A DNA stretch of 64,000 nt from Geosiphon pyriformis uo1 (Eukaryota; Fungi; Glomeromycota): the NCBI GenBank assembly GCA_016748015.1, contig JAAOMT010000134.1, forward strand, positions 1,680,757 to 1,744,756, read 5' to 3'. Of the stretch, positions 7,179 through 48,034 are shown piece after piece (the first letter of the stretch is position 1; each line of letters begins with the position of its first letter). The translations under genes were made by a program, and so were the position numbers. Under the pieces are notes generated by a model. That model was given only the letters and a program-made list of their open reading frames with translations, did no database searches and was not told the origin of the DNA.

Positions 7179-7886
7179 ATGATTATTCCCCGAAATATTC
7201 AACAAATATCCCAAAAATTAATGTTAGCCTTAAAAACACTTCTTGACTTATTCATAACAATTAATGAAAGTCAAATCAATTACATTCAGAAAGAAACCAC
7301 AGCCCCAGTAATAAATAATTCTCAGAACTATTACTTCTATAGAAGAAAAACAAGAAGTCACTTTGAGAATAAGTTACCAAAACTTTTGAAGCAGGCACTA
7401 AAAGAAAACTTTTTATCTGCCCCTATTAAGATTTCACCAAATGCCACAATATAACAAAAATTTCTACTATTACTTAATAAACAGAACAATGAACATATCC
7501 TTATATTTAAATATTTCTGCATTAGAAAAACACTTTATGAACAAAAACTAGAACTTGAAGCAACAAATACCACCCCAGAAGCCATACAAAAACAAATTTA
7601 CAATGAATTCAAGACAGCAGCTGGATCAACAAACACTTGCTACAAACTTAGAGCAGCTTTTAGACTCTATAACTTGTTTAATACTTGTGAAAATGTTCTA
7701 CAAAGCCCAATACTTTAACCATTAAAAATACAATACATTGGAAAGCTCACAAAACTGAAATTTCAACAATTTTCAGAGCAAATCACTTCAATCATCTTGG
7801 ACCACTATCTTGACATTACAGATAGTGCTTGGACTTTAATGGAGCTTAGTCTTAAGAAGGAGGTTATGTTATCAGTAGAATTTTAG
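7179..7886 (+). pseudogene. E1 accessory ORF3 (env position, unknown function)
   Basis: ATG-initiated ~235-codon frame with two internal stops, lying between IN and the LTR. N- and C-terminal motifs resemble ORF3 of E3-E6. Confidence 0.7.
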
Positions 7887-8069: not shown

Positions 8070-8147
8070 AAAATTCGCCGAAATTTACAGAAATTCGCCG
8101 AAATTTATATGAAATTCGCCGAAATTTATAGAAATTCGCCGAAATTA
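8070..8147 (+). repeat. Tandem repeat, 4 x ~20 bp (GAAATTCGCCGAAATTTAYA), in E1 LTR U3
   Basis: Directly visible. Confidence 0.95.
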
Positions 8148-8170: not shown

Positions 8171-8190
8171 NNNNNNNNNNNNNNNNNNNN
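8171..8190. other. Assembly gap (20 N)
   Basis: Run of N. Confidence 1.
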
Positions 8191-15744: not shown

Positions 15745-15758
15745 TTATTTCCTCTTTT

Positions 15759-16394
15759 TTAATATTGAGCTCCATTGAAATTTTCATTTTGAATTAATTC
15801 TAATACTTTTTTTTCAAGTATTGTTTGTTTGACTCTGTTTCTTATGTTTTCTATTTGTGTATTGTTTATTCTTCCCCATTGGTTAATGGTTATGGTTTCC
15901 ATGTCAAAGTGTAACAGTATTTTGGGATAGTTCCGAAATATGTTGTGTAGTCAATACATGGTTTTAACATGTAATGTTGAATTTGTTTTCTTTCTAATAA
16001 ATTCTTTAATTTGTTGTATTATGTCTTAGTTGAATATTCTTTTGGATTTGTTGATATACAACTCCTGAATATTCAACTTTTGATCTAACTGATAGTAGCA
16101 ATATGATATTGGAAGTTGTTCTGTCCATTGCTTCCAATTTTTTTTTGTAAGCTCTTCTATTGGTGCCATAATAGATATTTTCCCAAAAGTGTTTTTCACT
16201 TTTTCTATTAAGTTATTTGTCCAGTTTTTATCATTCTTTGGTGGCTGCTAATATGGTGTATTCTTTGTCTTTCTTTGGGTGTTTTGATAGCAAATTATTT
16301 GGTTGTTAATAACAATTTCCATGTTTAACTGTTGTTGACTTAAGGCCTGAAACAATTGTTGAGTTATAGTGTGAATATGATTTGGTATTTCCAT
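15759..16394 (-). pseudogene. E4 accessory ORF3 (212 codons)
   Basis: MEIPNHIHTITQQLFQ...ENFNGAQY*; homologous to 33704-34338. Confidence 0.75.
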
Positions 16395-16448
16395 TTTTTT
16401 TGGCTGCTTTTGTTATGTGTACTGTGTCTTTATATACTTTTTGGTTGT

Positions 16449-17814
16449 TCAATTTGACGTGTTTGGTTCAATAACTATAATTGGTTCCAGATCTCATGAA
16501 ATCTTATCTGGTTGAACTAGTATTTTTTGTACTCCCAGTTGTGGAATATTATTGGTAGATGATGATACTATCTGGTAATATGGTTTCAGTCGATCACCAT
16601 GTGCTGCTTTGGCTAAAATTTTGTTGTCTCATCTTAATTAATAAGCTCTATTTCCTAGAATTTCTTTTATGTGAAATAATCCATTCCATTTGGGGTCAAA
16701 TTTTCCATTTTATTGTTTTTTTGCTTTGGTACAATGTAATAGTACTTTGTCTCTAATCTTGAATTTAACTGGTTTATCCAGTAGTTGGTTATCATGTTGT
16801 TTTTTTTGCTTTTTTTATGACTTTTAGATGTTATTAGATGCTTTTTATTGTCTGTTTTCTAGTGTTTCCATTAAGTCATATGTTCTTTTCAACAATGTTT
16901 CTTGGAAATTATCTTCTGTTATTGGTTCTGTTGGATATGTTTTAATTTCTATTTCAACTGGTAATGTTGTTGTTCTACCATATACCAATTCAAATGGTGT
17001 TGCTTGTGTGATATCTTGCTTCATTGTCTAATAAGCAAATAATACTGATTGTATAATTAAATTCTATTTGTCCTGGTTTTTTTGGGTAATTTTGGCTATT
17101 GCTTTACACAGTATTTTATTAAATCTTTCAACTAAGCCATTCATTTGTGGATGATATGGTAATGATAATGGTCTTTTAATTCCAAATCTTTGACTTAATT
17201 CTGTCAATGTTCTGTTCACAAAGTGAGTTTTTTGATCTGATAGTAGTTCTTTTGAACATCCATGTCGACAAATCAAATCTTGATGAATGAATTCAGCAAC
17301 AGATTTTGCATCTGCTCTTTGAATGGCTTTTGCTTTTAGCCATTTAGTGAAATAGTCCATGGCTACTGCAATATATCTGTTGCCTTTACTGGTAATTGTT
17401 AATGGTCCAACTAAGTCAATTCTAATGCAATCAAATGGTTGTCTTACTTTGATTGGTCTTAATGGTTCACTGGGTTTTGTTCCATTTCTTCTCTGACAAG
17501 CATCACAATTTTGAATGTATTGAATGATGTCCAGATACATTAATGGCCAATAATATCTTTTTTTGGTTCTTTCTATGGTTGCTTCTTTGTGAAAGTGTCC
17601 TGCTGTTAAATCTGAGTGCATGTTGAATAATATTGTTTTTTTCTCTGGTTGGTTGCTCTGAATTTCTTTTGTTCTTTTGGTAAAGTATATTTTGATGGTT
17701 GATAAAATATTTTGATTGTTGTTTTATGTTCTTTTGTTTCTTTTGAGATAATTTCTCCTTGAACAATTGGGTATTTATATAATGTTGTAGTTGTTGGTAT
17801 TTTTGGATATTCAT
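16449..17814 (-). pseudogene. E4 integrase, separate ORF
   Basis: MNIQKYQQLQ start; MHSDLTAGHF..CDAC, IDLVGPL, SDQKTHF, NGLVERFN. Confidence 0.9.
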
Positions 17815-17843
17815 TTTTTGTTATATTTTTGGGTTGAAATGTT

Positions 17844-23800: not shown

Positions 23801-24050
23801 TGATTGGTGTGAAACTGTAGTTTCTTAATAAGCTGGTATGTTGAAATAATTCTGTATAGAAATTTTTTCTTGTAAATTCAGTGTTAACTGTTTCTCTTAA
23901 ACAGTCTGTGATTTTATTATTGACGTAGAAGTTAAAGGTAGATTCTGCTGGGAAGTAGTTATTGTTTAGTCCTAATTGTTGGCTGTACTATTGAAACAAA
24001 GATTTAGCAAATCCTAAATGATTTGCTCCTATGTTTTCTGATTCTGCCAC
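17844..24050 (-). pseudogene. E4 polyprotein ORF0-Gag-PR-Cys-rich-dUTPase-RT-RNase H
   Basis: ORF track fragments: Gag 22341-23027, PR 21536-21808, dUTPase ~19620-20015 (TARGIQGFGSTS), RT 18117-18977. Confidence 0.9.
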
Positions 24051-24112
24051 TTTTGGATAATTGTTGTTGGTGCTGATTCTCTGTAAAATTATACCTTACA
24101 GAAAGCACTAAA

Positions 24113-24979
24113 TGTTACAGGTGATTATTTGGGTCTCAAATTAAATAACAAAACCCATAACTTGGTGCTCAGTAACTAATTTGGTGGATGGTGTTGGTAA
24201 TATTGGTATGTTGTTATTATTTGATGGTGTGATTTATCTGAAAATTTTGTTGTTGAGTTCTTTGTATAATGGACAGAGATTCAATTGTTGTCTTTTCAGT
24301 AGCCTCCCAGAATTGCAATTCCATCAAATTTTTTTCTCAGTGTGGTGGCTGGTAATCTGACAGAGATGTTCTTCTGGTAAGCTATCTGTTAATATATATA
24401 AATCCTATACTCTTCCTTTGGGGTCTTTTACCAGACTATCCTTAACATTAATAACTCAGTGCTTAATTCTCAATTAATTAGTAAAACAAAGAAATAGAAG
24501 AAAATAAAAGAAAATAAACAAAAATAATTACAAGTTAGTATTCTATCAATAACTGTGATCAAAAGCTATTGTTCCAGTGTAATTAAGTATCAATTACTAT
24601 CAACATAAAGTGTTGATAGTGGAAAGTAGATTTGAGATGAAGAATAATTATTTATTGATATTTGTGAATTGGAAGGTTGCTTAGATGAAATCTAAACTAA
24701 GAGGTGTGTCTTTTCTACTTCTAATGCTATCACTATATATACATAATTTGGGTTTTACGAGATTGCTCACATTCTCAAGCAATGTGCTATAATTTCTTAA
24801 GCAATGCTCACATTGTTGAGCAATGTGCCATATTTTTTTGACATTGCTCTATATTGCTGAGTGATGTACCATGATTTCTGACATTGCTCTATATTGCTGA
24901 GCAATGTGCTCATGTGCTAACTACTACTCTCTTATTGGTCTACTATTTTTCTATATTTGTTTTCTTTTTATGAGTAACA
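24113..24979 (-). repeat. E4 5' LTR
   Basis: Direct repeat of 14876-15744; PBS adjacent. Confidence 0.95.
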
Positions 24980-25063: not shown

Positions 25064-25930
25064 TGTTATTCATAAAAAGAAGACAGATATAGAAAATAGC
25101 AGACCAATAAGAGAATAGTATTTAGCACATAAGCACATTGCTTAGCAATATGGAGCAATATCAAAAATCATGACACATTGCTTAGCAATGTAGAGCAATA
25201 TTAGAAAATTAGAGCACATCACTCAGCAATGTAAGCATTGCTCAAGAAATCATAGCACATTGTTTGGAAATGTAAGTGATCTCGTAGAACATCAATTATA
25301 TATATATAGTGGTAGCATTAGAAGTAGAAAAGAAAGAATTCTTAGTTAAAAGACCTCTCTATTTAGATTTTATCTAAGCAACTTTCCAAATCACAAATAT
25401 CAATAAATAATTATTCACTATCTCAATCCACTCTCTACTATCAACATGAAATGTTGATAGTAATTGATACTTAACCATACTGGAACAATAGCTCTTAATC
25501 ACGGCTATTGATGGGATACTAACTTGCAATTGTTTTTTTTGTTAATTTCTTTATCTTTTTTTATTTTCTTTTATTTCTTTTGTTATTTCTTTGGTTTTAC
25601 TAAAATTGATTAAGGATTAAGCATTGAGATACAGACATTATAGGGACTAGTTACAGACCCATGAAACAAGGGTAGAACACTCATAGATTTGAGAATAGCT
25701 TACCAGAAGAATTACCAGCCACCACACTGAAAAAAAAATTTGACAAAACTGCAGTTTTGAGAAGCTACAGATAAAATCATCAATTAAATTTCTGTCCATT
25801 ATACAAAGGACTCTATTCTAAAACCTTTAGATACAACCAATGTATTAGTGTTATCAGCCTTGTCAAGATATTGAGTGCCAAGTTACGGATTTGTTATTTG
25901 ATTTAAAACCCCAAATAATCATCTGTAACA
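25064..25930 (+). repeat. E5 5' LTR (GAGCAATGT-type U3)
   Basis: TGTTATTCATA...TGTAACA; CCAAT box and TATA-like (TA)n. Confidence 0.95.
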
Positions 25931-25989
25931 TTTGGTGCTCCCTGTAAGATATAATCTTACAGAGAACCAGCACTAACAACTAATTAACA

Positions 25990-28900
25990 GTAGCAGAATC
26001 AGAAAGTATAGGAGTAAACCATTTAGGATTCGCGAAATTCTTATTTCAACACTACTGTCAACACTTAGAATTAAATCACAATCATATATCAGTAGAATCA
26101 GCCTTCAATTTTTATGTCAATGAAAGAATTGCCTATTTGTTAGGGACATCAGTAAACACGGAATCAGCAAGAGAAACTTTCTACTATGAATTAATACAAA
26201 ACACTAGCTTACCAACAAATCATAATTTCGCATCCATCATTACTGAGATTAACAAAGAAATTGAACATCACACACAACAAAGATATCCAATTACTTACTC
26301 AAGTAAAGACAAAGAAAAACTACAAACACCAGCAGTAACACCTCAATAGATCCAACCACCCACTTGGAAGAAACACAGAGTTGAATCACCCACAAATCTA
26401 TCATATTATTATACTTCTGAAAGTGCCATCCATATCACATTACCAAACATGTCCACATCAAATATGACATCAACATTTGGACAATTTCCATTCCAAAATA
26501 AACAAAAGAAAACAGAATTACTAGGCCCATATGGCAAATATTTCGAAGGATTTCAATCACAAACACCAACACCATCAGGAATCTGATCACCACTACCTCC
26601 ACCAGATTTCGGGATAGCTGATCTATGAAAAGCATCAAAATCAAAAGAAAAAAAAAATTTGAGGATCAAGAATTTACTTATCAGAACCTAATTCCAGAAA
26701 ACCCAGAAGTTGAAACCCCGAACATTCAAACTCCGAAAAATACAAATCAAGAAAATCTGAAAATCAAAACTCCAAATATTCAAATACCATGGAATCGGAA
26801 TATTTTAAACTCCAATTTAATCAATCAACCAAACTTACCTTCAAATATCATCATAAATCAACCACCAATTGAACTAATTATTGAACCAATTCAATAACAG
26901 CCACTCTAGCAACCAATTCAACACCCACAACAGCCAATTCAACAGCCACCAGTACTACCTTTACAGCAACAACAACAACCCATGGCATTTGTACCAATCG
27001 CGAAACTTGAGAAGTTCACCAGCAAAAAGGACAATGCCCAGGCATAGATCAATGATGTCACCAAAGCAATCACAGCAAATAACTGGGATGACCAAAGAGC
27101 CCTCCAAGCAATTTCACACTTTCTCCAGAATACTGCTAATTCCTGGTATCAAAATTTAGCAGCCAGACCACAAACCTTTCAGGAATTCAAACTGGAGTTT
27201 TTGAAATATTTCAGTAATAATAATAGTATTAATCGCTTGGCCAACACTTTCATTACTATCAAATAAGGAGAAACTGAAGCAGTCACCACTTATCTGGGAT
27301 AATTTCATAGAAGTTTGCGACAGATTCAAGCAATCAATGCTAACTATTTTACAGCACCACAAATCTTCAACCAGTTTATCCATGGCCTGTGCAGTAGTAT
27401 CTTGTAGCATGTACATACATTGTATTCCAACACTCTTCAAGATGCAGTTATACATGCCAGAGATTTCGAGTCAGCAGAGTTAGAGGCCAATTATACTCAA
27501 GCTGTAAACCTAGTGATGAATGGACTATCTGAACTGGATTCCAAATTAAAACAATTCAGTGATTCAATTAATCAGAGATTAGAAGAATACTTAGCTAACA
27601 ATTGCACAATTTATTAGCCATTTCAATGACGCAATAATTTAGAAATCACAAATCACCCAGAAAATCAGTCGCATCTCTCATCATTCTTCAATCAGCCATA
27701 ACAGCAAAAGACACATATCTGCCACTATTGTGGTAAACAAGGACATTTGAAAATCAATTGTCAGTTAAGAATAGAAAACCAATGATCGGAAAATCAATAT
27801 CGAAACCCTGATCGCTGGTTTTCAACTCCAAGATATTAATCAAACGCAGAAATATATCAACCAAATTACATACCTATGACACAGCCACAAATTTATCAGC
27901 TGCCAATTTATTAGCCAACAGCACCCATCATTTATCACCCACAGTCTCAACCCATTTATCAGCTGCAGTCTCAGGTAATCTACCAGCCGCAACAAGTTCA
28001 AACATCACTGCAGAACTTACCTCAAAACGGAACTCAAAGGCCAAAACTGACACTGCAAAGCTGAAGATCATCAATGGTGGTCCATTAACCGATCTCCAGT
28101 TCCATGGCACAACCATCAAGTTTTTGACAACAGAATTTGGGTACCAGTTCCACCCAAAATCCGAATTCCCAACACTATTTAAGTCTCTTGGTTACTTCAG
28201 AAGATGCCACCTCCCACAACTCAGAATCCAATCAACAACTATTACTTACTAGTAACATACCTCCAGCCACTGTCACCAATGACAAAACATTGGCTGCCAT
28301 ATTCCCTTTTGAACTCAAGGAAACCACAATGGTACCACTATTCAATAGAGCCACCTTGAAGGAAAAACCCATCATAGCAATGTACACTAATGCGAAAGTC
28401 AATGGCCACTCCATCAAACTGATCCTAGATAGTGGATTAGCTGGCAGCATTATCACAAGACAATTCATGGATCAATTAGGTTGCTGAGTTGATCGAGCTG
28501 CTAGTGCAAGAATGATTACTGCCAATGGAGCAACCAAAACTCCTATTGGCAAAATTGACAACTTCCCTATAGAAGTCAATGGCATAATTATCCTAATCAA
28601 AGTACTAGTCATAGAAGCCACTTAGTACCAAGCACTAGTTGGTAATAACTAGCTCACCAAAACAAATGCCATCCTTAATTGAACCATTTAAGAGTTGTAA
28701 CTTAGCCAAAATGGCTAATACACATGAGTACTAGCAACATGTGGCCATTTTGAACCCAGTCACATGCCAGCCCCACTAATCGACTTGGAAGAAGAAAAGC
28801 TGAAACCCATCTGAGAAGCATACCAAATGTTGTGAATTAATGTCAATTACAATGAACTGCTGCCAATACTCATCTGAAATGACAATGACCAAGAAAAGGG

Positions 28901-31900
28901 AAAAAAAAAAGAAGAACTTATCTGGAACACTGACCAAGCCTGGGAAATCAACAATGATCAAGAAGACCCATCAACCTGAGAGTGGCAGGAAAGCAATTAA
29001 GAAAAAGAGAAGAAAAACGAAGAAAACCGACTTGAAACCAACAAAACCAACAAAGCCAGCACTAGTAACTGGAGAAAATCCTACTCAACCAACACCAGAC
29101 CAGAGCCACTGCATATTCCTCTCAAGTGCAAAGACTGCAACAAGAAATTGTCCTCAATGAAAGCTTGGATTACACCATACAAAGACTACTGGATGCACAC
29201 CCATTACTATTGCAAACCATGTTACTGCAAACACTATAAGTACTCCAAGAGACAAGGCAAGTGGGACAATAAATCATGTTTCACTTGTGGAAAACAACTG
29301 CTCGATAAAGGGATGTGAAATGACATTCTTGGTAGAGAAGAAATGTGTGACACTTTGTGCCAGTACACAATCTTCATCAGTGACTGGGTGAATCGTGGAA
29401 CACCCATTACAGCAGCCTGGTACCAAGCAATCTTTTACTTAGAAGATTATCCACATGACGAGGACAAGATCTGGCAAATGGCCAATGCCAAAGTAGAAGG
29501 CACTTTGCCCAGTAAAATTCTGGAAATCAAGAACAACCCTCCAGAACCAACAGACATTGTGTTGGTTCTCAACCCAGATATCTTTTTCGACTTAGAAAAC
29601 AGCCCAAAAGAATTCCATAAACACAATCAAAATCTAGCACCTACAAGAGAAGAGTAAGAGCAACGTTTGGAAAAAATCAATATCCAATTATGTGACCACT
29701 GTTTAATTTCATGTGACTTCCAATTCTGTGATGATTGTGATCTCATTTACAATCTACTACCATGTATAATCTACATGATCTTAGAAGAAGAAAAACCAAT
29801 CAACAGCTGCACATTGGAATCAGAATCAGTTTTCAATCCTGATTCAAACTCTGACAACAACAATAACAAAAACACCAGTTTCAGTTTTGTTCAAAACAAC
29901 AATGAAAACAACAGCAATTGGAACTCCAATTCAAACCCAGAAATATATATCGCACTTCTTAATCTCACCAAGGAGCAGACCTTAAAATAGTTCAGTGATA
30001 ATGAGGAAAAGATCATGCCAGAATGTGCACATGATACTGATGTTGGGTTTGATCTAAGGTATTCAGAGAAAAATGTCATCAAATTGGAGCCACGTTTGTG
30101 CACCTGTATTGATCTGAAAATAGCATTGGAAATACCAGCAACAACCATAGTTCAACTAGCTTTCAGAAGTAGTTTAGCAAAAAGAGGAATTACTATAAGA
30201 GAAGGAATAATTAACACTGGATATGTAGGAAATATTATGGCAATGCTACAAAATGACTCAGAAAAGACCTATATCATAGAACCAAATGAAAAGATAGTAC
30301 AGGCAATATTCCTGCCTCTGGTTAGAATAGCTCAGTTAGTACCAATGGGAAATAGGGAAGAATTAGGGATTACTGCTAGAGGAATACAGAGATTCGGATC
30401 AACAGATAGAATAGACATACCAGTTAATATGATGGAGAAAGTGGTTATTGACAAAGGAGAAATTATCTCAACTTGTCAATCAATTTCCATTCTATCATAT
30501 GACCAGTATATGTTATATATAAAAAGAGAAGTAAAGAATCAGGCTCAGTTGTTTGAAGCAGAAACCACCATTTGTAAATTAGGAGAGATTGGACTCACTA
30601 ATCTCTACATATCAGCCAAAAGTCCCAAAAACATCAAAATTCTCATCTACAACACAACTGAAAGTATCATTGAAATACCAAAGGAAACTATTATAAGATA
30701 TTTGACCACTGAAGTTGAGGATCAACCACCAAATCACATTCCAGACTTTCTGCAACTTTGTGGATATGTTGACATCACATCACAAACAATATATGGATGT
30801 AGCAAATGTTACTTGCTTTAATCAGAACAATTAGAACAGATGAACATAGAAAATTTAGATCTATTTCAATGGATACAACTCAAGATGTTATTCAATAATT
30901 TCAATGACATCTTTGCTAGTGAAAATGAATTTGGCCAAACCAATATCATCCAGCATCAGATCAAAACTGGAGATGCAATGCCAATTAAACAAAAAGCATA
31001 CAGAATACCACTAGCTAGCCATGAGATCATTTGTCAAAAAATCAACCGGATGCTTGACAATGGGCTAATTTAGCCATCAATGAGTCCATAGTTGTCACTA
31101 ATAGTATTAGTCTATAAGAAAAATGAAAAAATCCGTTTTTGTGTAGACTATTGAAAACTGAATAGAGTAACAAAAGATGATAACTATCCAATGCCAAAGA
31201 TCCAAGAACTATTCGATGCTTTTAGAAAAAATAAATAGTTCTCAATACTGGACTTAGATAGTGGTTACTAGCAAGTAGCCATGGATCCAGCTGACAAAGA
31301 AAAAACAGCATTCACCACAAGAGAAGAAAATTTTGAGTTTGAAGTCATGCCATTTGGCTTGATGAATGCTCCAGCAACATTCCAATGGCTCATAGAAATT
31401 TTTTATACTGGATTACTATGGAAATCAGTAGTTGTATACTTGGATGACACCAATGTGTTCTTAAAAACATTTGATGATCATCTGCACCATCTCCAACAAG
31501 TGTTCGAAAGATTAAGAAGAGCTGGATTGAAATTAAATGCAACCAAATGTTTCTTTGGAAAAACTGAACTCAAGTTTTTGGGACATATAGTGAGTAAAAA
31601 TGGAATCAAAACGGATTCAGACAAGATTGAGGTAGTTAAGAACTTTCTGGTACCAACCAACTTGACAGAACTAAGAGCATTTTTAGGTTTCGCAGGCTAT
31701 TATTGCCATTTTATCAAAGACTTTTTAAAACTGGCTCAGCCACTTCACCATTTACAAACCAAGAATGTGAAGTATAAATGGACTGAAGCTCAACAAGAAG
31801 TGTTTGACACATTAAGAAAAAAGCTTATCCAAGCTCCAGTATTGATGTATTCAGATTACAACAAACCATTTATAATCACTACTGATGCATTAGGTCAAAC

Positions 31901-32240
31901 ATTGGGAGCAGTACTATCACAGAAAAGATCAGATAGAAGAGAACATCCAGTAGCTTATGCCAGTAGAAGCTTAAGTCCAGCTGAGAAAAACTATGAAACT
32001 CCAGCACTAGAACACTTAGCTATTTATTGGGCTGTTATCAAATAAAAGGAATACTTGAGTCAAAAGTTTGAAGTGTACACTGATCACAAAGAATTAACTT
32101 CAATTCAGAAACAAGAATTTGCAAACAATCACTATGCCAGATGGAAAATAAAACTTTTACTATTCAATTATACAGTACATTATAAAAAAGGAAAAGACAA
32201 TAGAAATGCCAATGGACTGTTGTGAATGAGACAAATCTAA
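25990..32240 (+). pseudogene. E5 polyprotein ORF0-Gag-PR-Cys-rich-dUTPase-RT-RNase H
   Basis: CCHC CHYCGKQGHLKINC at ~27720; LILDSG at ~28420; dUTPase 30015-30410; RT VVVYLDDT; RNase H TTDAL..VAYASR. Confidence 0.92.
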
Positions 32241-32270
32241 AAACATTTCAACCCAAAAATATAACAAAAG

Positions 32271-33643
32271 ATGAACACACAAAAATACCAACAACTTCAG
32301 CATTATATAAATACTCATTCAAGGAGAAATTATCTCAAAAAGAACAAAACAATATAAAACAACAATCAAAATATTTTATCAATCATCAAAATATACTCTA
32401 CCAAAAAAACAGAAGAAATCCAAATCAACTAATCAGAGTAATCACAGAACCAGAGAAAAAGACAATATTATTTAACATGCACTCAAATTCAACAGCAGGA
32501 CATTTTCATAAAGAAGCAACCATAAAAAGAACCAGAAAAAGATATTATTGGCCATCAATGTATCCAGACATTATTCAATATGTTCAAAATTGTGATGCTT
32601 GTTAAAGAAGAAAAGGAACAAGACCAAGTAAACCATTAAGACCAATTAAAGTGGGACAACTATTTGATCACATTGGAATTGACTTAATCAGACCATTAAC
32701 AATCACCAGTAAAGACAACAAATATATTGCAGTAGTCATGGATTATTTCACTAAATGGCCAAAAGCAAAAGCCATTCAAAGAGCAGATGCAGAATCCATT
32801 GCCGAATTTGTCCATCAAAATTTAATATGTCAACATGAATGTCTAAAAGAACTACTATCAGATCAAAGAACTTATTTTGTGAACAGAACATTAACAGAAT
32901 TAAGTCAAAGATTTGGAATTAAAAGACCATTATCATCACCATACCATCCACAAATAAATGGCTTAGTTGAAAGATTTAATAGAACACTGTGTGAAGCAAT
33001 CACCAAAATCAGTAAAAAAAACCAAAATGAATGGGATTTGTTTATACCATCAGTATTATTTGCTTATTGAACAATAAGACAAGATACTATACAAGCAACA
33101 CCATTTGAATTGGTATATGGTAGGACAATAACATTACCAGTTGAGAGAAAGGTCGGCACATATCCAATTAAACCAATAACAAAAGCTAATTTCCAAGAAA
33201 CATTATTGAGAAGAATATATAACCTAATAGAACCACTAGAAAACAGATGACAAAAAGCAGCTGATAATATTCAAAAGTCTCAAGAAAAGCAAAAAAAACG
33301 ACACAATAACCAATTACCAGATAAACCAGTTGAATTCAAGATTAGAGACAAAGTACTTCTATATCATACCAAAGTAGAAAAATAATAAAGTGGAAAATTT
33401 GACCCCAAATGGAATAAACCATTTTACATAGAAGAAATTCTCGGAAATAAAGCTTATAAACTAAGATAGGACAACAAAATTTTAGCCAAAACAGCACATG
33501 ATGATTGACTGAAACTATATTACCAAATAGCATTATCATCTACCAATAACATTCCACAATTAGGAGTACAATGAATATTAGTTCAACCAGATGAGATTTC
33601 ACGAGATCTGGAACCAATCATAATCATTGGACCAAACACATAA
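32271..33643 (+). pseudogene. E5 integrase, separate ORF
   Basis: Own ATG 30 nt after the RNase H stop; HHCC and DDE motifs; ends LEPIIIIGPNT*. Confidence 0.9.
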
Positions 33644-33703
33644 AATCAAACAATAAAAGAGTATATAAAGACACAGTATATGTGACAAAGGCAACCAAGA
33701 AAA

Positions 33704-34338
33704 ATGAAAATACCAGATCATATTTATGCCATAGCTCAACAATTATTCCAGGTCTTAAGTCAACAATCTTTAGACATGGAAATTATTGTTAACAACCAAA
33801 CAATTTGTTATCAAAACACCAAAAAAAAGACAAAGAATACACCATATCAGTGGTTACTAAAGAATAATAAAAACTGGTCAGATAACATAATAAAAAAAGT
33901 AAAAAACACTTTTGGAAAAATACCTATTATGGCACCAACAGAAAAACTTACAAAAGAAAATTGGAAGCAATGGACAGAACAACTTTCAATATTATACTGT
34001 TATTACTAGTTAGGTTAAAAGTTGAATATTCAGAAGTTGTATATTGACAAATCCAAAAGAATATTTAACCAAAACATAATACAGCAAATTGAAAAATTTA
34101 TTGAAAAGAAGACAAACTTGACACTACATGTGAGAACAATTTATTGACTGCACAACATATTTCAGAACTATCCAAAAATATTGTTATATTCTAACATGGA
34201 AACCATAATCATTAATTAATAGGGAAAAATGAACAATACACAAGTAGAAGATGTGAAGAACAGAGTCGAACAAACAATACTTGAAAAAAAGTATTAGAAT
34301 TAATTCAAAATGAAAATTTCAATGGAGCTCAATATTAA
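33704..34338 (+). pseudogene. E5 accessory ORF3
   Basis: MKIPDHIYAIAQQLFQ...ENFNGAQY*; stop abuts the PPT. Confidence 0.75.
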
Positions 34339-34351
34339 AAGAAGAAGATAA

Positions 34352-35258
34352 TGTTACTCATAAAAAGAAGACAGATATAGAAAATAGCAGACCAATAAGA
34401 GAATAGTATTTAGCATATGAGCACATTGCTCAGCAATGTGGAGCAATGTCAGAAATCATGGCATATTGCTTAGCAATGTAAAGCAATGTCAGAAAACATG
34501 GCATATTGCTCAGCAATATAGAGCAATGTTAGAAAATTAGAGCACATTGCTTAGCAATATAAGCATTGCTCAAAAAATCATAGCACATTGCTCAGAAATA
34601 TGAGCAATCTCATAGAACATCAATTATATATATATAGTGGTAGCATTAGAAGTAGAAAAGAAAGAATTCTTAATTAGAAGACCTCTCCATTTAGATTTTA
34701 TCTAAGCAACTTTCCAAATCACAAATATTAATAAATAATTATTCACTATCTCAATCCATTCTCTATTATCAACACTTCATGTTAATAGTAATTGATACTT
34801 AACCATACTGGAACAATAGCTCTTAATCATGGCTATTGACGAGATACTAACTTGCAATTGTTTTTTTTGTTAATTTCTTTATCTTTTTTTATTTCCTTTT
34901 ATTTCTTTTGTTATTTCTTTGGTTTTACTAAAATTGATTAAGGATTAAGTGCTGAGATACAGACATTATAGAAACTGGTAAAAGACCTGTGAAACAAGGG
35001 TAGAACACTCATAAATTTGAGGATAACTTACTAGAAGGATTACCAGCCATCACACTGAGAAAAAAATTTGACAAAACTGTGGTTTCAGAAAGTTATGGAT
35101 AAAACCATTAATTAAATCTCTGTCTATTATACAAAGAACTCCACTCTAAAATCTTTAGATACAACCAATGTATCAATGTTACCAGCCTTGTCAAAATATT
35201 GAGTGCCAAGTTACAGATTTGTTATTTGATTTGAGACCCCAAATAATTATCTGTAACA
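34352..35258 (+). repeat. E5 3' LTR (one extra 40-bp U3 unit versus the 5' LTR)
   Basis: 907 bp versus 867 bp; direct repeat. Confidence 0.95.
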
Positions 35259-36502
35259 GCATATAAAGTACCACCAACCAGCCATAAAATCATTCATTAA
35301 GAAATTAACCAAATGCTTGACAATGGGTTAATTCAGCCATCAATAAGCCCATGGTTATCACCAGTGGTACTAGTTCATAAGAAGAATAGAAAATTCTGCT
35401 TTTGTGTAGATTACTGGAAACTGAATGAAGTAATCAAAAAAGATAGCTATCCAATACCAAAGATCCAAGAGCTGTTTGATGTTTTTGGAAGAAAGAAATG
35501 ATTCTCAACTTTAGACTTAGACAGTGATTACTGGCAAGTAGCTATGAAACCAGAAAATAAAGAGAAAACAGCATTTACAACTTGAAAAAAAAATTTTGAA
35601 TTTGAAGTAATGTCATTTGGCTTAATAAATACTTGAGCCACTTTCTAGTGACTTATGAAAATTGTTTATACTGGGCCACTATAGAAATCAGTAGTTGTAT
35701 ACTTGGATAACACCAACATGTTTTCAAAAACATTTGATGATTATTTGTATTATCTCTAACAAGTATTTGAAAGACTCAGATAAGCAGAATTAAAATTGAA
35801 TGCAACTAAGTGTTTCTTTGGAAAAACTGAACTTAAGTTTTTGGGACATATTGTAAGCAAAGACGAAATTAAAACAGACCCAGATAAAATTGAGATTGTC
35901 AAAAACTTTCCAATACCAAATAATCTTACAGAATTAAGAACATTCTTGGAATTTGCCAGATACTACTATCACTTTATCAAAGACTTCTTCAAAATAGCTC
36001 AACTATTACACCAGCTCCAAACAAAAAACACCAAATATAAATAGACAGAAACTCAGCAAAAAGCTTTTGATACATTAAGAAGAAAGCTTATTCAAGCTCC
36101 AATATTAATCTATCTGAATTATAGCAAGCCATTTATAATCACAACAGATACATCTGGTCAAGCATTGGAAGCAGTATTATTTCAGAAAAAATTGGATGGA
36201 CAAGAACATCCAGTAGCTTATGCCAGTAAAAGCTTAAGTTCAGCTGAAAAAAACTATAGAACTCTAGCACTGGAACATTTAGCAATTATTAGATTGTTAC
36301 CAAATGGAAAAAATACTTGAATCAAAAGTTTGATGTGTATACTAATCATAAAAGATTGACTTTGATCCAAAAACAAAAATTTGGAGATGATTGCCATGTC
36401 AGATGGAAAATAGAACTTTCACTATTTAATTATACAGTACATTATAAAAAAAGAAAAAAAAATGGAAATGCTAACAGATTGTTGCAAATAAGACAAGTCT
36501 AA
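35259..36502 (+). pseudogene. E3 RT-RNase H
   Basis: SPWLSPVVLV, FCVDY, VVVYLDN, TTDTSG; ends QIRQV*. Confidence 0.9.
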
Positions 36503-36532
36503 AAACATTTTAACCCAAAAATATAACAAAAG

Positions 36533-37909: not shown

Positions 37910-37969
37910 AATTGAACAATCAAAAGAGTATATAAAGACATGATATATGTGACAAAAAACAGAAAAAAA

Positions 37970-38599
37970 ATGAAGATTACTAATGACATTTACTCACTAG
38001 CACAACAACTTTTTTAACTGATCCAACAACAAGAAATGGAAATTACAATCAACCAACAAACTATTAGATACACAAACATCAAAAAAAGACTATGAGATAA
38101 AATATGGAGAAAAACAAAAAACACTGTGAACAAAATAATCACAAAAGTGAAATTGGCAATAAAAACACAACCAAAAGTTACCCAATATCAAGAATTGACT
38201 ATAGAAACTTGGAATTGGTGGATACAACAATTTCCAAAAAACTTTTGTTACTTTTACTTGGGACAACACTTGAATATTCAAAGTTTGTATACAGATAAAA
38301 CAAAATGATTATTTGACACAACAATACTGCAACAACTGGAACAATTTGTGGGGAAGAACAATTTGACTACACAAGCCAGAGCCATCTATTGGCTACACAC
38401 CATATTTCAAGATCGACCAAAAATCTTACTTAATTCAGAAATAAACTCTATTATTATTAACCAAATAGAAAAAATAACCAATGCTCAATTTGAAAAATTA
38501 CAGAACAAGATAGCACAAGTCATTCTTGAAAAAAAAGTTCAAGAAATACTCAAAAATGGAAAATTAGAATTAGGAGATCTCAACAGAGCTTAATATTAA
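37970..38599 (+). pseudogene. E3 accessory ORF3
   Basis: MKITNDIYSLAQQLF...QARAIYWLHTIFQDRPKIL...; diverged homolog of E4/E5 ORF3. Confidence 0.75.
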
Positions 38600-38613: not shown

Positions 38614-39439
38614 TGTTACTCATAAAATATAGGAAATATATTAGCATATAAATTAGCCAATCAAAAGTAGCCATAGTAAATGTGAAATTCCAGGATTTCT
38701 TTCAAAAAAATTACAAAATTCCAGGAATTTCAGGATTCTTGTACAAGGAATTGCAAGATTCCAGAATTCCAGGATTCTTTTCAAAAGAATTACAGGATTT
38801 CTGGTGTGAAGAATTAAGAAATTAAGGAATCTCAATTATGTATATATATCAGTAGCATTAGAAGTAGAAAAAAAGAGACCTCTTAGTTTAAATTTGATCC
38901 AAATAACCTTCCATTTACAAATATCAATAAATAAATATTCACTATCTCAATCTATTCTTTACTATTAACACTTCATGTTAATAGTAATTGATACTTAACT
39001 ACACTAGAACAATAGCTCTTGATCATGGCTATTGATAGAATACTAACATGCAAATCATTTTGGCTTATTTTTCTTATTTTCTTTTTTTGCTTTATTTTCT
39101 TTATTATTGGTTAGCTTAATTAAAAGAATTTACACACAGAGATACTAACATCAAGATATAACACTGGTAAAAGATCCAAGAATAAAAGTAGACACTTGAA
39201 ATTAAGAATATCTTACCAGGAGAATTACTGGCCATCATACTGAGAAAAAAATTGACAAAACTGTGGTTTTGGAAAGCTACAGATAAAATTATCAATTGAA
39301 TCTCTGTTCATTATACAAAGAACTCAACAAAAACCTTCAGAAAAACACATCTTCAGATATCCTTAAACATTTAAATCAATTAAGCACCAAGTTACAGATT
39401 TGTTATTTGCATTGAAACTCCAAACAATTACCTATAACA
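38614..39439 (+). repeat. E3 3' LTR (GGAATTC-type U3)
   Basis: Follows PPT gagaaggaaataa; TGTTACTC...ATAACA; not followed by a PBS. Confidence 0.93.
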
Positions 39440-42400: not shown

Positions 42401-45400
42401 ATTTCCAATCCAGATACATTTTTTGATATTGAAGCTGGCTCAGAAGAATTTCATAAACATTACTAAGATTTAGTGCCAACCCAACAAAAACAGGAGCAAT
42501 ATTTAAAACAACTAAACACCCAACTATATGACTATTGTTTAATTCTCTGTAACTTTCAATATTGTAATAATTGTGATCTTATCTACAATCCACTATCATA
42601 CATGATTTACACAATTCCAGAAAAAAAAAAACCAATCAGCAGCTGTGAAATAGAATCAAAATTGCCACTCAATCATTATTCAAATTCCAATAATGATAAC
42701 AATAACAATAGTTTCAGCTTCATTCAAAATAGCAATGACAACAGTAAAAATTTAAACTTCAATTTAAACTCAAAACAATATATCACACTCCTTAATCTTT
42801 CCAAGAAGCAAGAACTTAAATGGTTCAGTAATAATAATAAAGATATTAGGCCAAAATGAGCACATAATACCAATACAGAATTTGATCTAAGATATCTTAG
42901 AAAAAATGCCATCAAATTGGAACCATATTTACACACCTGCATTAATCTGAAAGTAGCACTGAAAATCCCAATCACTATAATAGTTCAATTAATATCTAAA
43001 AGTAGTTTAGCAAAAAAAGGAATTAACATCAGAGGAAGAATAATTAATGCAAAATATGTAAGAAATATTATTGCAATGCTACAAATAACTTGGAAAAAAA
43101 ATATATTATTGAACCAAATAAAAAGATAGCATAAGCAATATTTCTACTTTTGGTTAAAATAGCTTCATTAGTGTTAGTAAAAACAAAAAAAGAATTAAGG
43201 ATTACAGCCAAAAGAAAAAATGAATTTGAATTCATAAGTAAGATAGATATACCAGTTAATATAATAGAGAAAGAAATTATTAACAAAGGAAAAATTATTT
43301 TCACCAGTTAATTAATTCTTATTCTATCATATGATTAGTATTTAGTAGTTATAGAAAGGAAAGTAAAAGATCAACCCCAAATTTTCGAAACAGAAGCCAC
43401 AAATTGTAAATTAAGAGAGATTACTATTACCAATTTCTACATACTGGCTAAAAACCACAAACACATTAAAATTTTCATCCACAATACAACTGGAAATCTT
43501 ATCAAAATACCAAAAAAAACTACTATTAGATACTTAAGTACTGAAGTTAAAGACCAACCACCAAGCACTATTTCAGATTTTTTATAATTGTGCAGATATG
43601 TAGACATTATATTACAAGCAATATACAGATGGGAAGAATGTTATTTGCTCCAACAAAAACAATTGAAATAAATGAACATGGAAAACTTAGACCCACTTTA
43701 ATGTATACAACTCAAGATACTACTCAATAATTTCACTAATATTTTTACCAGTAAAAATGAATTTGGTAGAACTGACATTATTCAACACCAGATTAAAACT
43801 GGTAATACAATGTCAATTAAACAAAGAACATATAAAATACTATCAACAAGCCATGAAATCATTTAACAAGAAATTAACAGAATGTTAGACAACAGATTAA
43901 TTCAATCATCAATAAGCCTATGGTTATTACCAGTAGTATTAGTCCAAAAAAAAAATGGAAAATTTTGCTTTTGTGTAGATTATAGAAAACTTAACAATAT
44001 TATTCATGAAGACAGCTATCTAACTCCATGAATTCAAAAATTATTTAATGCTTTCAAAGGGAAGAAATAGTTTTCAACACTGGATTTAGATAGTGGTTAC
44101 TGACAAGTAGCAATAAAATTAGAAGACAAAAAAAAAACCACATTTACCACCAAAGAGAGAAACTTTGAGTTTAAAGTAATACTATTTGGCTTAATCAATG
44201 CTTCAGTCATATTCCAATGGCTAATAGAAATTGTTTATACTGAACTGTTATGAAAATCAGTAGTTGTTTATTTAAATAACACTAATATATTTTTAAAAAC
44301 ATTTAATGATTATTTTCATTATCTACAGCAAGTGTTTAAGAGACTTAAAAGAGCTGGATTGAAACTAAATACAACTAAATGCTTCTTTGGCAAAACAAAA
44401 CTAAAATTTTTGGGACATGTTGTAAGCAAAGATAACATCAAAACAAATCCAAATAAGATTGAGATAGTAAAAAACTTTCCAGTACCAACAAATTTGACAG
44501 AACTATGAGCATTTTTGGGATTTGCTGGATATTACTGCTGCTTTATTTAGAACTTTTTTAAATTGGCTCAACCACTTCATCAATTTCAAACTAAAAACGT
44601 GAAATATAAATAGACTGAAGCCCAACAACAAGCTTTTGACATTTTAAGAAGAAAGCTTATTTAAGCTCTAGTATTGATCTATTCAGATCACAGCAAATTA
44701 TTCATTATTATTACTGATACATCAAGCCAAGCATTAGAAGCTGTATTATCTCAAAAAAAACCAGATAGAAGAAAACACCTAGTAGCATATGTCAGCCAAA
44801 GCTTAAGTTCAACTGAAAAAAACTATAAAACACCAGCATTAGAACACTTAGCTATTTATTAGGCAGTCATCAAATAAAAAGAGTATTTAAGCCAAAAGTT
44901 TGAAGTATACACTAATCACAAAAGATTAACATCAATTCAGAAGCAAGAATTTGGAAATAACTATTATGCCAAATGGAAAATAGAACTTTCAACATTCAAA
45001 TATAATGTACACTATAAAAAAGAAAAAAAAAATAGAAATGTCAACAGTTTGTCACAAATAAAACAAATCTAAGAACATTTCAACCCAAAAATATAACAAA
45101 AGATGAATACACAAAAATATTAACAACTTTAGTACTATATTAATACCCAACAGTTCAAAGAGAAATTATCTCAAAAGAAATAAAACAGCATAAAACAACA
45201 ATTAAAATATTTTATTAGTTACCAAAATATACTCTATTAAAAAAACAGAAAGAATTCAGATCAATTATTCAGAATAATCACAAAACTAGAAAAAAAAACA
45301 ACATTATACAACATGTATTCAGATTTGACAGCAGGATATTTTCATAAAGAAGCAACCATGAAAAGAACCAGAAAAAAATATTATTGGCCATCAATATATT

Positions 45401-48034
45401 CAGACATTATCTAATATGTTCAAAATTGTGATGTTTGTTAGAAAAAAAAAGAAACAAGACCCAGTAAACTACTAAGACCAATTAAAGTAGAACAATTATT
45501 TGATAGAATTGGAATTGACTTAGTTGGATTATTAACAACAATTAGCAAAAACAATTGTTATATAGCAGTAGCCATAGACTATTTTACAAAATAACCAAAA
45601 GTGAAAGCAATTCAAAGAGCAGATACAGAATCTGTAGCTGAATTCATTTATTAAGATTTGATTTGCTAACACAAATGTCCAAAAAAATTGTTATTAGATC
45701 AAAGAACTCACTTTATAAACAGAACATTAACAGAATTAAGCCAAAGATTTGAAATTAAAAGACTATTATTATCACTATATTATCTACAAATAAACAGTTT
45801 AGTTGAAAATTTCAACAGAATATTGTGTAAAGCAATCGTCAAAATTAGTCAAAAAAACCAGAATAAATGGGATTTGTTTATATTATCAGTACTATTTGCT
45901 TATTGGACAATAAAGCAAGATACCACATAAGCAATACTATTTGAACTTGTTTATAATAGAACAGCAATATTACCAGTGAAAATAGAAGTCAATACATATT
46001 CAACTAAACCAATAATAGAAGACAACTTTTGAAAAACATTGCTAAAAAAAACATATAACTTAATAAAAACTTTAGAAAACAAAAGACAAAGAGCAGCTAA
46101 AACATTTAAAAGTTACAAAAAAAACAACATAATAACCAGTTACTAAACAAACCAGTTGAATTCAGAATTAGAGACAAAGTACTTTTACATCATATCAAAG
46201 CAAAAAAACAATAGAATAGAAAATTTGATCCCAAATAAGATGAACTATTTCACATTGAAGAAATTCTAAGAAATAGAGCATATAAACTAAGATAAGACAA
46301 CAAAATTTTAGCTAAAGCAATACATGGAGATCAACTGAAATTATATCACAATATATTATCATTATTTACCAGTAATATTTTACAACTAAAAGTACAATAA
46401 ATACTAGTTCAACCAGATAAAATTTTACAAGATTTAGAACCAATTATAATCATCTGTACAAATACATCAAATTAATCAAACAAAGTAATACATAAAGATA
46501 TGATATACACAATAAAAGCAACAATAAAGATGAAAATTACTGATGACATCCACTCATTCACATAGCAACTATTCCAACTGATTCAACAATAAAACATGGA
46601 AATTACAATCAATCAATAAACCATTTAATACAAAGATAATAAAAAGAAAACCCAATACAAAGTACATAAAAAACTGGAAAACATTATAGACAAGATAATA
46701 GCAAAAGTAAAATTGTTAATGAAAATACCAGAAACAGTAGTACCATACCAAAAATTGACAAAAAAAACTTGGAATTAGTGGAGACAACAATTTTCAAGAA
46801 ACTTTTGTTATTATCACTTGGAACAAAACCTGAATATTCAGAACTTATATACTGACAAAACAAAATGATTATTCAACACAACAATACTACAACAACTTAA
46901 ACAATTTGTAAGGAAAAACAATTTGTTTATACAGGCACAAGCCATATATTAGCTACATGTAGAATTTTAAGATTGGTCAGCAATACTACTTAATCCAGTG
47001 ATAAATACAGTTACCATTAATTAATTGGAAAAAATTACCAATGCTTAATTTAAAAAATTACAGATAAAAATAAACCAAATAATTCTTAAAAAAAAAGTTC
47101 AAGAGTTAATTAAAAAAGAAAAGTTAGGAGATATAAAAGATTTTAACAGAGCTCAATATTAAAAAGAAAGAATAATATTACTCATAAAATATAGGAATTA
47201 TATATTAGTACATAATTAGCCAATCAGAATAAGATGTAATAAAAGTGGAATTCCAGGATTTCTCTTAGAGAAATTGCAAAATTACAGAATTACAGAATTT
47301 CTGTGTAAAGAATTGCAGAATTTCTGGCTAGAAAAATGAAAAATTCAAGAAATCTCATACAATAAAATTTATGTATATATAGTGGTAGTATTAGAAGCAG
47401 AAAAGACAAAATTCTTAGTTTAAAATCTTTAGTTTCAATTCCATATCCATTTCTTTATACAATAGTATTTTATGACTTGAAATAGAAACATCAAATATCA
47501 ATAAAATACTTATTCACTATTGCAATTCATCTTTCTATTATCAATAATTCATGTTAATAATTGCCAATACTTAATTATACTGGACCAATAATTCTTGATT
47601 ATGGCTATTAACAGGATACTAACTCTTTCTTGCCTTGGCTTATTTCTTTATTTTTATTTATTTTTTTTATTGTTTTTATTGTTTATTGTGTACTAATTGA
47701 TTTAAGAGATTAAGTATTGATTAATTGACATTACAGATAGTCTGGTAAAAGACTCTAAAAGAAGAGTATCAAGTTTAAAAAATTTATGAATAAGTTTACC
47801 AAAAGAACACAACTGCCAGAATAAACTGGCCACTATGCTGAAAACAAAAATTAGGTGGAATTGCAATTTTAAGAAGCTACTAAAACAACACTTAAATCTC
47901 TGTCTGTTATACAAAAGACTCAACAAAAACCTTCAAACACCAAAATTTTCAGATATTATTAACCAGATTAGTTATTGAACACCAAGTTACAGGTTTATTA
48001 TTTGTATCAACATCCCAAATAATCATTTGTAATA
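39440..48034 (+). mobile_element. E6: older, more decayed family B LTR element (5' LTR upstream of window), inserted into a HAL1-like element
   Basis: Starts mid-ORF0. Polyprotein to 45072 (dUTPase ~42850-43240), IN 45103-46475, ORF3 46530-47162, 3' LTR 47176-48034. Confidence 0.9.
47176..48034 (+). repeat. E6 3' LTR
   Basis: tattactcata...tttgtaata (TG and CA ends both mutated to TA); homologous to the E2/E3 LTRs. Confidence 0.85.

What the first reader, a model, noticed from the sequence alone, without database searches (positions are those of the whole stretch)
33704..34338. Conserved accessory ORF3 in the env position that is not an envelope protein
A ~210-235-codon ORF lies between IN and the PPT in E1 (7179), E4 (16394), E5 (33704), E3 (37970) and E6 (46530). 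Three diverged variants keep the N-terminal pattern M.I...I....Q.L...L.....I.IN...I.Y and a C-terminal A/R..Y....F...L....I...GK..N..F pattern. No signal peptide or transmembrane segment is evident, and the composition looks basic and helical. It may be a nucleic-acid-binding regulator or anti-silencing factor (inference). It diverges faster than RT/IN among family B copies.
Basis: partly seen in the sequence, partly recalled or inferred. Interest (0 to 1): 0.8.

Follow-up and report, generated by a model that had tools for sequence, protein, structure and literature searches.

The report
Fungal retrotransposon's own DNA-binding regulator gene
Jumping genes (Ty3/gypsy retrotransposons) in this likely fungal DNA carry a conserved third gene where retroviruses keep their envelope gene; its protein has no membrane segment, is predicted to be a helical, possibly helix-turn-helix DNA binder, and would likely regulate the element through palindromic repeats in its own terminal repeat.

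Summary
The ORF is real, but all five window copies are broken (2-10 stops; E5 also frameshifted; E4 lies on the minus strand). It sits between integrase and the polypurine tract of nested dUTPase-bearing Ty3/gypsy elements. Every named relative is labelled Geosiphon pyriformis, many are intact, and one metagenomic element (L001) carries an intact copy in the same place. Subfamilies B1 and B2 diverged under purifying selection (pN/pS 0.48-0.51 against 0.82-0.88 neutral). It is not Env: no transmembrane stretch, all-helical core models, no fold match. Additions here: a weak, same-register likeness to DUF1016_N (ParB-type helix-turn-helix class) in three deep lineages, a TATA box 41-42 bases upstream in family B, and a different palindromic U3 repeat array for each ORF3 type, with ORF3 plus U3 apparently exchanged as one cassette. 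Best reading: an element-encoded DNA-binding regulator of its own LTR, like foamy-virus Tas (0.35; binding and expression untested; profile-profile and fold tests were not significant). The scan noted a similar accessory ORF twice on other DNA; no sequence link to those notes was found.

The parts
33704..34338 (+). ORF3 of element E5 (subfamily B1); 5 in-frame stops and a frameshift near 34285-34291
   Evidence: 76% identical to intact P0006
33662..33670 (+). TATA-like box 42 bases upstream of the E5 ORF3 start; candidate internal promoter (function inferred)
34339..34351 (+). polypurine tract of E5, directly behind the ORF3 stop
34352..35258 (+). 3' LTR of E5
   Evidence: LTRs 90.8% identical; 75 transitions, 5 transversions
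34420..34612 (+). B1-type U3 tandem array, 40-base unit, 4.8 copies, with a 19-base palindrome; candidate operator (inferred)
25064..25930 (+). 5' LTR of E5 with its U3 array at 25128-25274; element flanked by a 4-base target duplication with one mismatch
30015..30404 (+). dUTPase domain of E5, between protease region and RT
   Evidence: (PF00692, E 6.6e-17)
31281..32045 (+). open part of RT-RNase H of E5
32477..33643 (+). integrase zinc-binding, core and C-terminal parts of E5 (decayed), ending 60 bases before ORF3
15762..16394 (-). ORF3 of E4 (B1), 3 stops; TATA-like box at 16428-16436; element 14876-24979
37970..38599 (+). ORF3 of E3 (B2), 4 stops; TATA-like box at 37929-37937
38686..38799 (+). 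B2-type U3 array of E3, 39-40-base unit, different motif from B1
46530..47162 (+). ORF3 of E6 (B2), 10 stops; variant box 41 bases upstream; U3 array at 47248-47322
7179..7886 (+). ORF3 of E1 (family A1), 2 stops; runs over the PPT into the LTR that starts at 7867; no TATA match within 200 bases upstream
8071..8146 (+). A-type U3 array of E1, 20-base unit, 3.8 copies, holding 8 CpG

Best explanation
ORF3 is a third gene, kept under purifying selection, between integrase and the polypurine tract of dUTPase-bearing Ty3/gypsy retrotransposons of a likely glomeromycotan fungus; it encodes a protein without a membrane segment that is predicted to be helical, is likely a DUF1016_N/ParB-class helix-turn-helix DNA binder, and would bind the palindromic repeat array in the element's own U3 to regulate the LTR promoter. 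Shown: position, family, selection, absence of a hydrophobic segment, broken state of the five window copies, a TATA-like box in family B, one distinct U3 array per ORF3 type. Predicted: a short alpha-beta-beta N-terminal module (low confidence) and an all-helical core. Inferred: transcription from the internal TATA box; HTH homology (about 0.55); binding of a dimer to the U3 palindromes (about 0.55 if it is an HTH); activation or protection from silencing rather than repression (open). ORF3 and U3 are neighbours at the 3' end of the RNA, so template switching would move them together, which would let each protein stay with its own operator. The copies in this window are dead relics of C-to-T and G-to-A decay.
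For: Gene: pN/pS B1 vs B2 0.48 and 0.51 against neutral nulls 0.88 and 0.82, 0 of 300 simulations as low in each; fixed purine/pyrimidine swaps 31/175, 17/175, 45/167 at codon positions 1, 2, 3. Intact relatives: P0006, 187 hits of 331 candidates for the E1 type; intact ORF3 in the same place in L001. Fold: models at pLDDT 76 and 82 with matching helix order. HTH: Pfam DUF1016_N E 0.12 on P0059 109-173; an HMM of 73 bacterial DUF1016_N domains scores 12 of 30 ORF3 cores above the best of 377 bacterial decoys (7.6 bits) and 5 of 30 above the best of 1200 block shuffles (11.6), in one register, in lineages B1, A and P0164 that are about 20% identical; forward beats reversed in 28 of 30. DUF1016_N and DUF3102, both named as candidates beforehand, are 2 of the 7 sets listed by the Atlas named search (0.83 each). 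DUF1016_N aligns to ParB HTH at 85.7%. ParB-family DNA-binding domains recur at low Z for both models (Spo0J Z 4.2, rmsd 5.3, 92 aligned; SopB Z 3.0, rmsd 5.3, 92 aligned; KorB Z 2.6, rmsd 3.8, 71 aligned). Promoter: TATA-like box at -41/-42 in E3, E4, E5, variant in E6. Target: four ORF3 types, four U3 motifs, one stray cross-match in the motif table. Cassette: B1-B2 transversions 0-4% over integrase, 14-26% over ORF3, 14-36% over U3, and 2-3% for E5-E3 right after the LTR TATA box.
Against: hhalign of ORF3 against DUF1016_N gives 0.7% and 2.1%, DUF3102 1.9%, ParB 0.3%, all matched or beaten by block shuffles. The DUF1016_N HMM does not lift B2, C, D or P0171 above decoys (0.2-4.1 bits), and a ParB HMM gives no core more than 4.2 bits, the decoy maximum. 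The idea was seeded by the P0059 hit, so subfamily A2 is not an independent test. All fold Z-scores are under 5, within the range of chance helical matches, and the ParB rows have rmsd near 5. Atlas scores under 0.9 are leads only, its recognition value (2119) is below the 2300 mark, and a closterovirus coat protein and a phage translation repressor rank higher. No TATA match upstream of E1 or of the L002 ORF3. U3 arrays evolve fast and lie next to ORF3, so their co-variation is expected from linkage alone; the B1 palindrome does not occur at the ORF3 promoter. The older-split signal at 4-fold sites holds for E5-E3 (7/11 vs IN 3/40, p 3e-4) but not for E4-E6 (4/12 vs 3/29, p 0.17).
Confidence: 0.35

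Rival explanations
1. The protein binds DNA through the same predicted HTH but not the U3 array: it coats the cDNA or integration complex, steers insertion, or shields copies from cytosine methylation without a specific operator.
For: Same HTH hints. The elements are nested into each other and lack an evident chromodomain after the integrase SH3-like part. Element bodies are CpG-depleted (21 observed vs 207 expected in E1), so pressure from methylation was likely strong.
Against: No test of either role. It does not explain why each ORF3 type has its own palindromic array, although linkage can.
Confidence: 0.2
2. The protein binds RNA or the particle: an RNA-silencing suppressor, translation control factor for the split reading frames, or a capsid-associated helper.
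For: Top Atlas rows are a closterovirus coat protein (0.91) and phage translation repressors (0.88, 0.87). Integrase has its own start behind a stop in these elements, so unusual translation control is plausible.
Against: The coat-protein row shares 138 of 256 features, under the 170 typical of true family members; no coat or repressor family passed a cut-off in Pfam or PHROGs or stood out in the viral and PDB fold searches.
Confidence: 0.2
3. An Env-like membrane or cell-to-cell movement protein.
For: Only its position between pol and the 3' LTR in sense orientation.
Against: No 19-residue stretch above 1.36 in 14 of 14 proteins, 1-3 cysteines, 197-261 residues; helical soluble-type models.
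Confidence: 0.03
4. A passenger frame or a cis-acting RNA/DNA region whose apparent coding is incidental.
For: All five window copies are broken; E4 vs E5 is not distinguishable from neutral change (55 of 300 nulls as low); the last codons overlap a motif next to the PPT that is kept at DNA level in different frames.
Against: Codon-position bias and pN/pS below neutral between subfamilies; frame kept across lineages 17-46% identical in the core; many intact copies.
Confidence: 0.04

Closest known systems
Fungal Gypsy elements with 'add. ORF' and with dUTPase between PR and RT (PosPlaTy3-5; PMC2864245, passages read)
   Same: Ty3/gypsy order of domains, dUTPase between protease and RT, an additional ORF of unknown function in some fungal elements.
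   Different: No sequence link tested (supplements not read). Here no chromodomain is evident, integrase has its own start, and the extra ORF is a defined family with a candidate fold.
Sense and antisense additional ORFs between pol and the 3' LTR of plant Ty3/gypsy elements (Athila, Bagy2, Grande gene23; PMC7264820, parts 1-2 of 3 read)
   Same: Same place; conserved in most copies; Grande gene23 is described as nuclear and transcribed from its own promoter.
   Different: Sense aORFs there are Env-like, some with transmembrane segments; the nuclear ones are antisense. ORF3 is sense and has no hydrophobic segment. No Pfam match to any of them.
Foamy-virus Tas (PMC8670036, PMC4929722; search listing with start of abstract only)
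   Same: Works-like analogue: a gene near the 3' LTR, expressed from an internal promoter, that binds the LTR promoter.
   Different: No homology claimed or found; Tas also binds the internal promoter, whereas the B1 palindrome is absent from the ORF3 promoter; the activity of ORF3 is untested.
DUF1016_N (PF17761), DUF3102 (PF11300) and ParB-type HTH (PF17762)
   Same: Helix with Y-x-I/L-G, second helix, turn, then a helix with R-x-Y-x-x-F in the same register; ParB-type HTH has been reported in chytrid fungi and chlorophytes fused to adenine methylases of phage origin (PMC4738411, passages read).
   Different: Far below Pfam cut-offs (12.9 vs 32.8 bits); no nuclease or methylase partner; profile-profile not significant. 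That DUF3102 and DUF6192 belong to this class is recalled, not shown here.

Membership tests
Ty3/gypsy LTR retrotransposon (host element) | PR-RT-RNase H-IN order | tested here: met
   protease-like region, dUTPase, RT, RNase H, integrase in this order in E1, E3-E6
Ty3/gypsy LTR retrotransposon (host element) | TG...CA LTRs, PPT, target-site duplication | tested here: met
   E4 and E5 LTR pairs 91% identical, 4-base duplications with one mismatch each
Chromovirus | chromodomain after integrase | tested here: inconclusive
   integrase tails read by eye; Pfam on a related tail gave only SH3_Tf2-1 under cut-off; no RT tree against reference clades was built
Env / Env-like aORF | sense ORF between pol and 3' LTR | tested here: met
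Env / Env-like aORF | signal peptide and transmembrane anchor | tested here: not met
   hydropathy maximum 0.38-1.36 in 14 of 14; SignalP and TMHMM themselves were not available
Env / Env-like aORF | sequence or fold match to a fusion protein | tested here: inconclusive
   no such row at E <= 0.001 or Z >= 5; an unlisted family is not excluded
DUF1016_N / ParB-type HTH | score over the Pfam cut-off | tested here: not met
   best 12.9 bits vs 32.8
DUF1016_N / ParB-type HTH | remote profile homology in register | tested here: inconclusive
   HMM: 12 of 30 cores above decoys; hhalign 0.3-2.1%
DUF1016_N / ParB-type HTH | four-helix HTH fold | tested here: inconclusive
   Spo0J, SopB, KorB, ParB at Z 2.6-4.2, rmsd 3.1-5.3
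DUF1016_N / ParB-type HTH | sequence-specific DNA binding | not testable with these tools
   needs gel-shift, DAP-seq or a structure
Tas-like transactivator (works-like) | own internal promoter | tested here: inconclusive
   TATA-like box in 3 of 5 window copies, variant in 1, none in 1; L001 at -126; no RNA run
Tas-like transactivator (works-like) | activates the LTR through U3 sites | not testable with these tools
   candidate sites only

The most novel reading that the evidence does not exclude
These fungal Ty3/gypsy elements are 'complex' retrotransposons: they encode a helix-turn-helix transactivator of bacterial or phage descent (DUF1016_N/ParB class) from an internal promoter, and each variant recognises its own palindromic operator array in U3. 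Regulator and operator swap between element lineages as one cassette, giving orthogonal regulator-operator pairs and perhaps shielding the promoter from cytosine methylation.
Probability: 0.25. Interest if true: 0.8.

Novelty: new variant of a known kind. Interest (0 to 1): 0.5.

Why it matters
Additional ORFs between pol and the 3' LTR are common and mostly without known function (PMC7264820). This family offers a direct test: intact proteins exist, a candidate fold class is named, and each variant sits beside its own candidate operator, so matched and mismatched protein-DNA pairs can be assayed. LTR elements are reported to cover 41.2% of the G. pyriformis genome (PMC11952901, passage), so a self-encoded regulator could bear on how that expansion escaped silencing. 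A practical gain regardless: hundreds of 'hypothetical proteins' in that fungus are retrotransposon accessory genes.

Tried and rejected
No whole genome is held for the window, so copy number and genome-wide ORF3/U3 pairing were not measured. Pfam, PHROGs, NCBIfam and PDB-sequence searches gave no family over a cut-off; phrog_23683 (9 of 32 members, best E 2.5e-4; where located, A family only) could not be sampled (1 weak match in 151 genomes) and FtsQ (9 of 32) was not followed. Foldseek found nothing at E <= 0.001 in PDB or BFVD; VIA-align had no Z >= 5; the N-terminal module was not folded alone. No relative among 409 candidate stretches of viral contigs. No RNA holder listed among sequencing runs; DNA contigs of X1 cover all 30 bins, X2 and X3 none. 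The extra 128-codon ORF of L002 is not related to ORF3 by HMM (1668 and 479 of 2000 shuffles as high). CpA-specific RIP rejected as the decay pattern: C-to-T differences are similar at CA, CC and CT (0.30-0.51) and near total at CG. A splice acceptor upstream of E1 ORF3 was considered by eye and not tested. Whether the protein forms a dimer remains open: no complex model was obtained. Literature searches that found no description of this ORF family; the genome paper of the species did not appear in them and may describe it; supplements of PMC2864245 were not read. PMC3248453 (passages) and PMC6338049 (part 1 of 4) added nothing. A recalled resemblance to a large unnamed glomeromycotan protein family fits the 25 of 30 unnamed Atlas clusters (best one Mucoromycota, 0.90) but was not tested by alignment.

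Full report
Setting. Bases 1-48000 of the window are a nest of Ty3/gypsy retrotransposons with dUTPase, RT, RNase H and integrase. E5 (25064-35258, +) and E4 (14876-24979, -) have LTR pairs 91% identical and 4-base target duplications with one mismatch; both appear inserted into E3. All named protein relatives are labelled Geosiphon pyriformis: 6 of 6, 120 of 120 listed out of 187, 19 of 20. The window is therefore likely from this glomeromycotan fungus or a close relative. The elements are decayed by transitions; CpG is depleted (observed/expected 0.11 against 0.77 in the host gene at 62199-63968) and C-to-T change is not CpA-specific. High CG methylation of transposons is reported for another glomeromycotan (bioRxiv 2021.03.30.436303, passages).

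The observation. A frame of 209-235 codons begins at each of the five cited positions and these are the only five copies in the window. None is open: 3, 5, 4, 10 and 2 stops in E4, E5, E3, E6 and E1, and a frameshift in E5 near 34285-34291. All 24 stops align to Q, R or W in at least one relative compared, which fits decay after insertion. E4 is on the minus strand. E4/E5 (B1) are 74% identical, E3/E6 (B2) 65%, B1 to B2 42-49%, E1 to the rest 22-26%. E1's homology rests on an HMM test (4 of 8 B proteins at 10.6-14.8 bits, best of 2000 shuffles 6.8; the window's own E4 and E5 copies scored -3.3 and 2.6) and on a bridging protein from L001.

It is a gene. Between B1 and B2, pN/pS is 0.48 (E5-E3) and 0.51 (E4-E6) against 0.88 and 0.82 for the same substitutions placed at random, 0 of 300 as low; E3-E6 likewise (0.39 vs 0.70); E4-E5 is not distinguishable from neutral (55 of 300). 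Fixed purine/pyrimidine swaps fall 31/175, 17/175 and 45/167 on codon positions 1, 2, 3. Constraint is weaker than on RT or integrase (second-position to 4-fold transversion ratio 0.28 vs 0.03). A profile search of 1.84 billion representatives gave 102 hits; 100 are closest to six subfamilies seen in the Geosiphon-labelled set (A1, A2, B1, B2, C, D) and two are full-length proteins of their own. Of 10 of the 102 looked up, 8 are labelled Geosiphon and 2 (P0164, P0171) are unnamed. L001 holds RT-RNase H, integrase (one stop), intact P0171, PPT and LTR in the same order; L002 holds an integrase end, a further 128-codon ORF and a P0164-like ORF3. Core identity is 17-46% between the deep lineages (A, B1, B2, C, D, P0171, P0164) and 71% between A1 and A2.

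It is not Env. The highest 19-residue hydropathy mean is 0.38-1.36 in 14 of 14 proteins, with 1-3 cysteines. The model of P0171 (pLDDT 76, about 90 over residues 80-200) has a weak helix-strand-strand start and a helical core; the B1 core alone (P0007, pLDDT 82) has the same helix order. No sequence or fold search gave a significant match.

What the core resembles. One member hit Pfam DUF1016_N at E 0.12. I noted this as a hypothesis and tested it. An HMM of 73 bacterial DUF1016_N domains scores ORF3 cores higher forward than reversed in 28 of 30 (means 6.3 and 0.6 bits). Twelve of 30 exceed the best of 377 bacterial decoys (7.6 bits; 54 element-derived decoys reach 6.6) and 5 of 30 exceed the best of 1200 block shuffles (11.6): intact B1 13.0, A1 12.5, A2 up to 14.7, P0164 8.0, in the same register; B2, C, D and P0171 score 0.2-4.1. 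The Atlas named search listed DUF6192 (0.86), DUF3102 (0.83) and DUF1016_N (0.83) among 7 sets. DUF1016_N aligns to ParB HTH at 85.7%, and Spo0J, SopB, KorB and ParB appear at Z 2.6-4.2 for both models but not in the top 50 of the Foldseek-based second look. Against: hhalign gives 0.3-2.1%, no better than shuffles, although the same test gave only 4.6% for DUF1016_N with DUF3102 (5 sequences); Atlas rows under 0.9 are leads only and unrelated families rank higher. I put the HTH class at about 0.55.

How it could be expressed. An earlier scan note (e1-7557680) reported a TATA box before a similar ORF on other DNA. Here TATATAAAG occurs 5 times in the window (1.2 expected), three of them 41-42 bases before ORF3 in E3, E4 and E5; E6 has a one-base variant; the box is the best-kept stretch of the spacer. 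These copies share descent and are not independent. E1 and the L002 ORF3 have no match within 200 bases; L001 has one at -126. No expression data were found.

A candidate target. Each LTR type has a tandem array upstream of its TATA box: B1 a 40-41-base unit with a 19-base palindrome, B2 a 39-40-base unit with another motif, E1 a 20-base unit, L001 four copies of a further 9-mer; the motif table shows one stray cross-match. Between B1 and B2, transversions are 0-4% across integrase, 14-26% across ORF3 and 14-36% across U3; right after the LTR TATA box they fall to 2-3% for E5-E3. At 4-fold sites ORF3 is more diverged than integrase for E5-E3 (p 3e-4) but not significantly for E4-E6 (p 0.17). 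This fits an ORF3-U3 cassette exchanged by recombination (inference). The E1 array holds 8 CpG in 76 bases while the E1 body has 21 in 7866 (207 expected), which fits protection from methylation or a recent amplification of the array. Linkage alone explains the pairing of ORF3 and U3 types, so this names a target to test and does not show binding.

Comparison. Additional ORFs of unknown function and dUTPase between PR and RT are described for fungal Gypsy elements (PMC2864245, passages), and aORFs between pol and the 3' LTR are common in plants, one of them nuclear and driven by its own promoter (PMC7264820, parts 1-2 of 3). The working analogue is foamy-virus Tas, which binds the LTR and an internal promoter (PMC8670036, PMC4929722; search listing and start of abstracts); no homology is claimed. 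ParB-type HTH domains have entered fungi before, fused to methylases (PMC4738411, passages). Nine literature searches found no description of this ORF family. Two earlier scan notes describe a similar ORF in other genomes; sequence look-ups did not link them to this family, and a word search for the HTH and palindrome reading found nothing.

Verdict. A real, unnamed accessory gene family of fungal Ty3/gypsy elements, dead in this window, not Env. Most likely a DNA-binding regulator of the element's own LTR (0.35); new variant of a known kind; interest 0.5.

Noticed in passing
window E1 about 5570-5640, E5 about 32235-32270, E3 about 36500-36530, E6 about 45070-45100; L001 772-800: RNase H ends in a stop and integrase begins at its own ATG a few codons later in E1, E3, E5, E6 and in the little-decayed L001 (another frame in E1; E4 is frameshifted there), so integrase appears to be a separate ORF in this lineage.
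   Followed up: partly
window 8071-8146: The U3 array of E1 holds 8 CpG in 76 bases in an element with CpG at one tenth of expectation.
   Followed up: partly
L002 425-811: A second accessory ORF of 128 codons between integrase and ORF3, with a TATA-like box 111 bases upstream; no Pfam family over cut-off and no HMM link to ORF3.
   Followed up: partly
window 31281-33013 and the matching parts of E3, E4, E6: RT-RNase H is deeply diverged at 4-fold sites in all pairs (transversions 0.25-0.35) while integrase is nearly uniform (0.02-0.08): the elements are mosaics, with a likely recent integrase sweep.
   Followed up: partly
window 7836-7866, 34320-34351; L001 3090-3120: A short motif just before the PPT is kept at DNA level across families but read in different frames: family B stops at the PPT, family A and L001 read through it into the LTR.
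   Followed up: no
window 25930-27000 and 1-900: A long coding extension upstream of the gag capsid-like region and a long insert between protease and dUTPase with several Cys/His clusters.
   Followed up: no
window 8523-9723: A B2-type LTR on the minus strand without an adjoining internal region, head to head with the truncated 5' LTR of E3; 20 N at 8171-8190 break E1's LTR.
   Followed up: no
window 54024-56112: Open fragments that look like a decayed non-LTR retrotransposon (recalled likeness; no Pfam family over cut-off).
   Followed up: no
window 62199-63968 (-): A 589-codon host ORF with a C-terminal PHD finger (E 2e-9) and near-normal CpG content.
   Followed up: no
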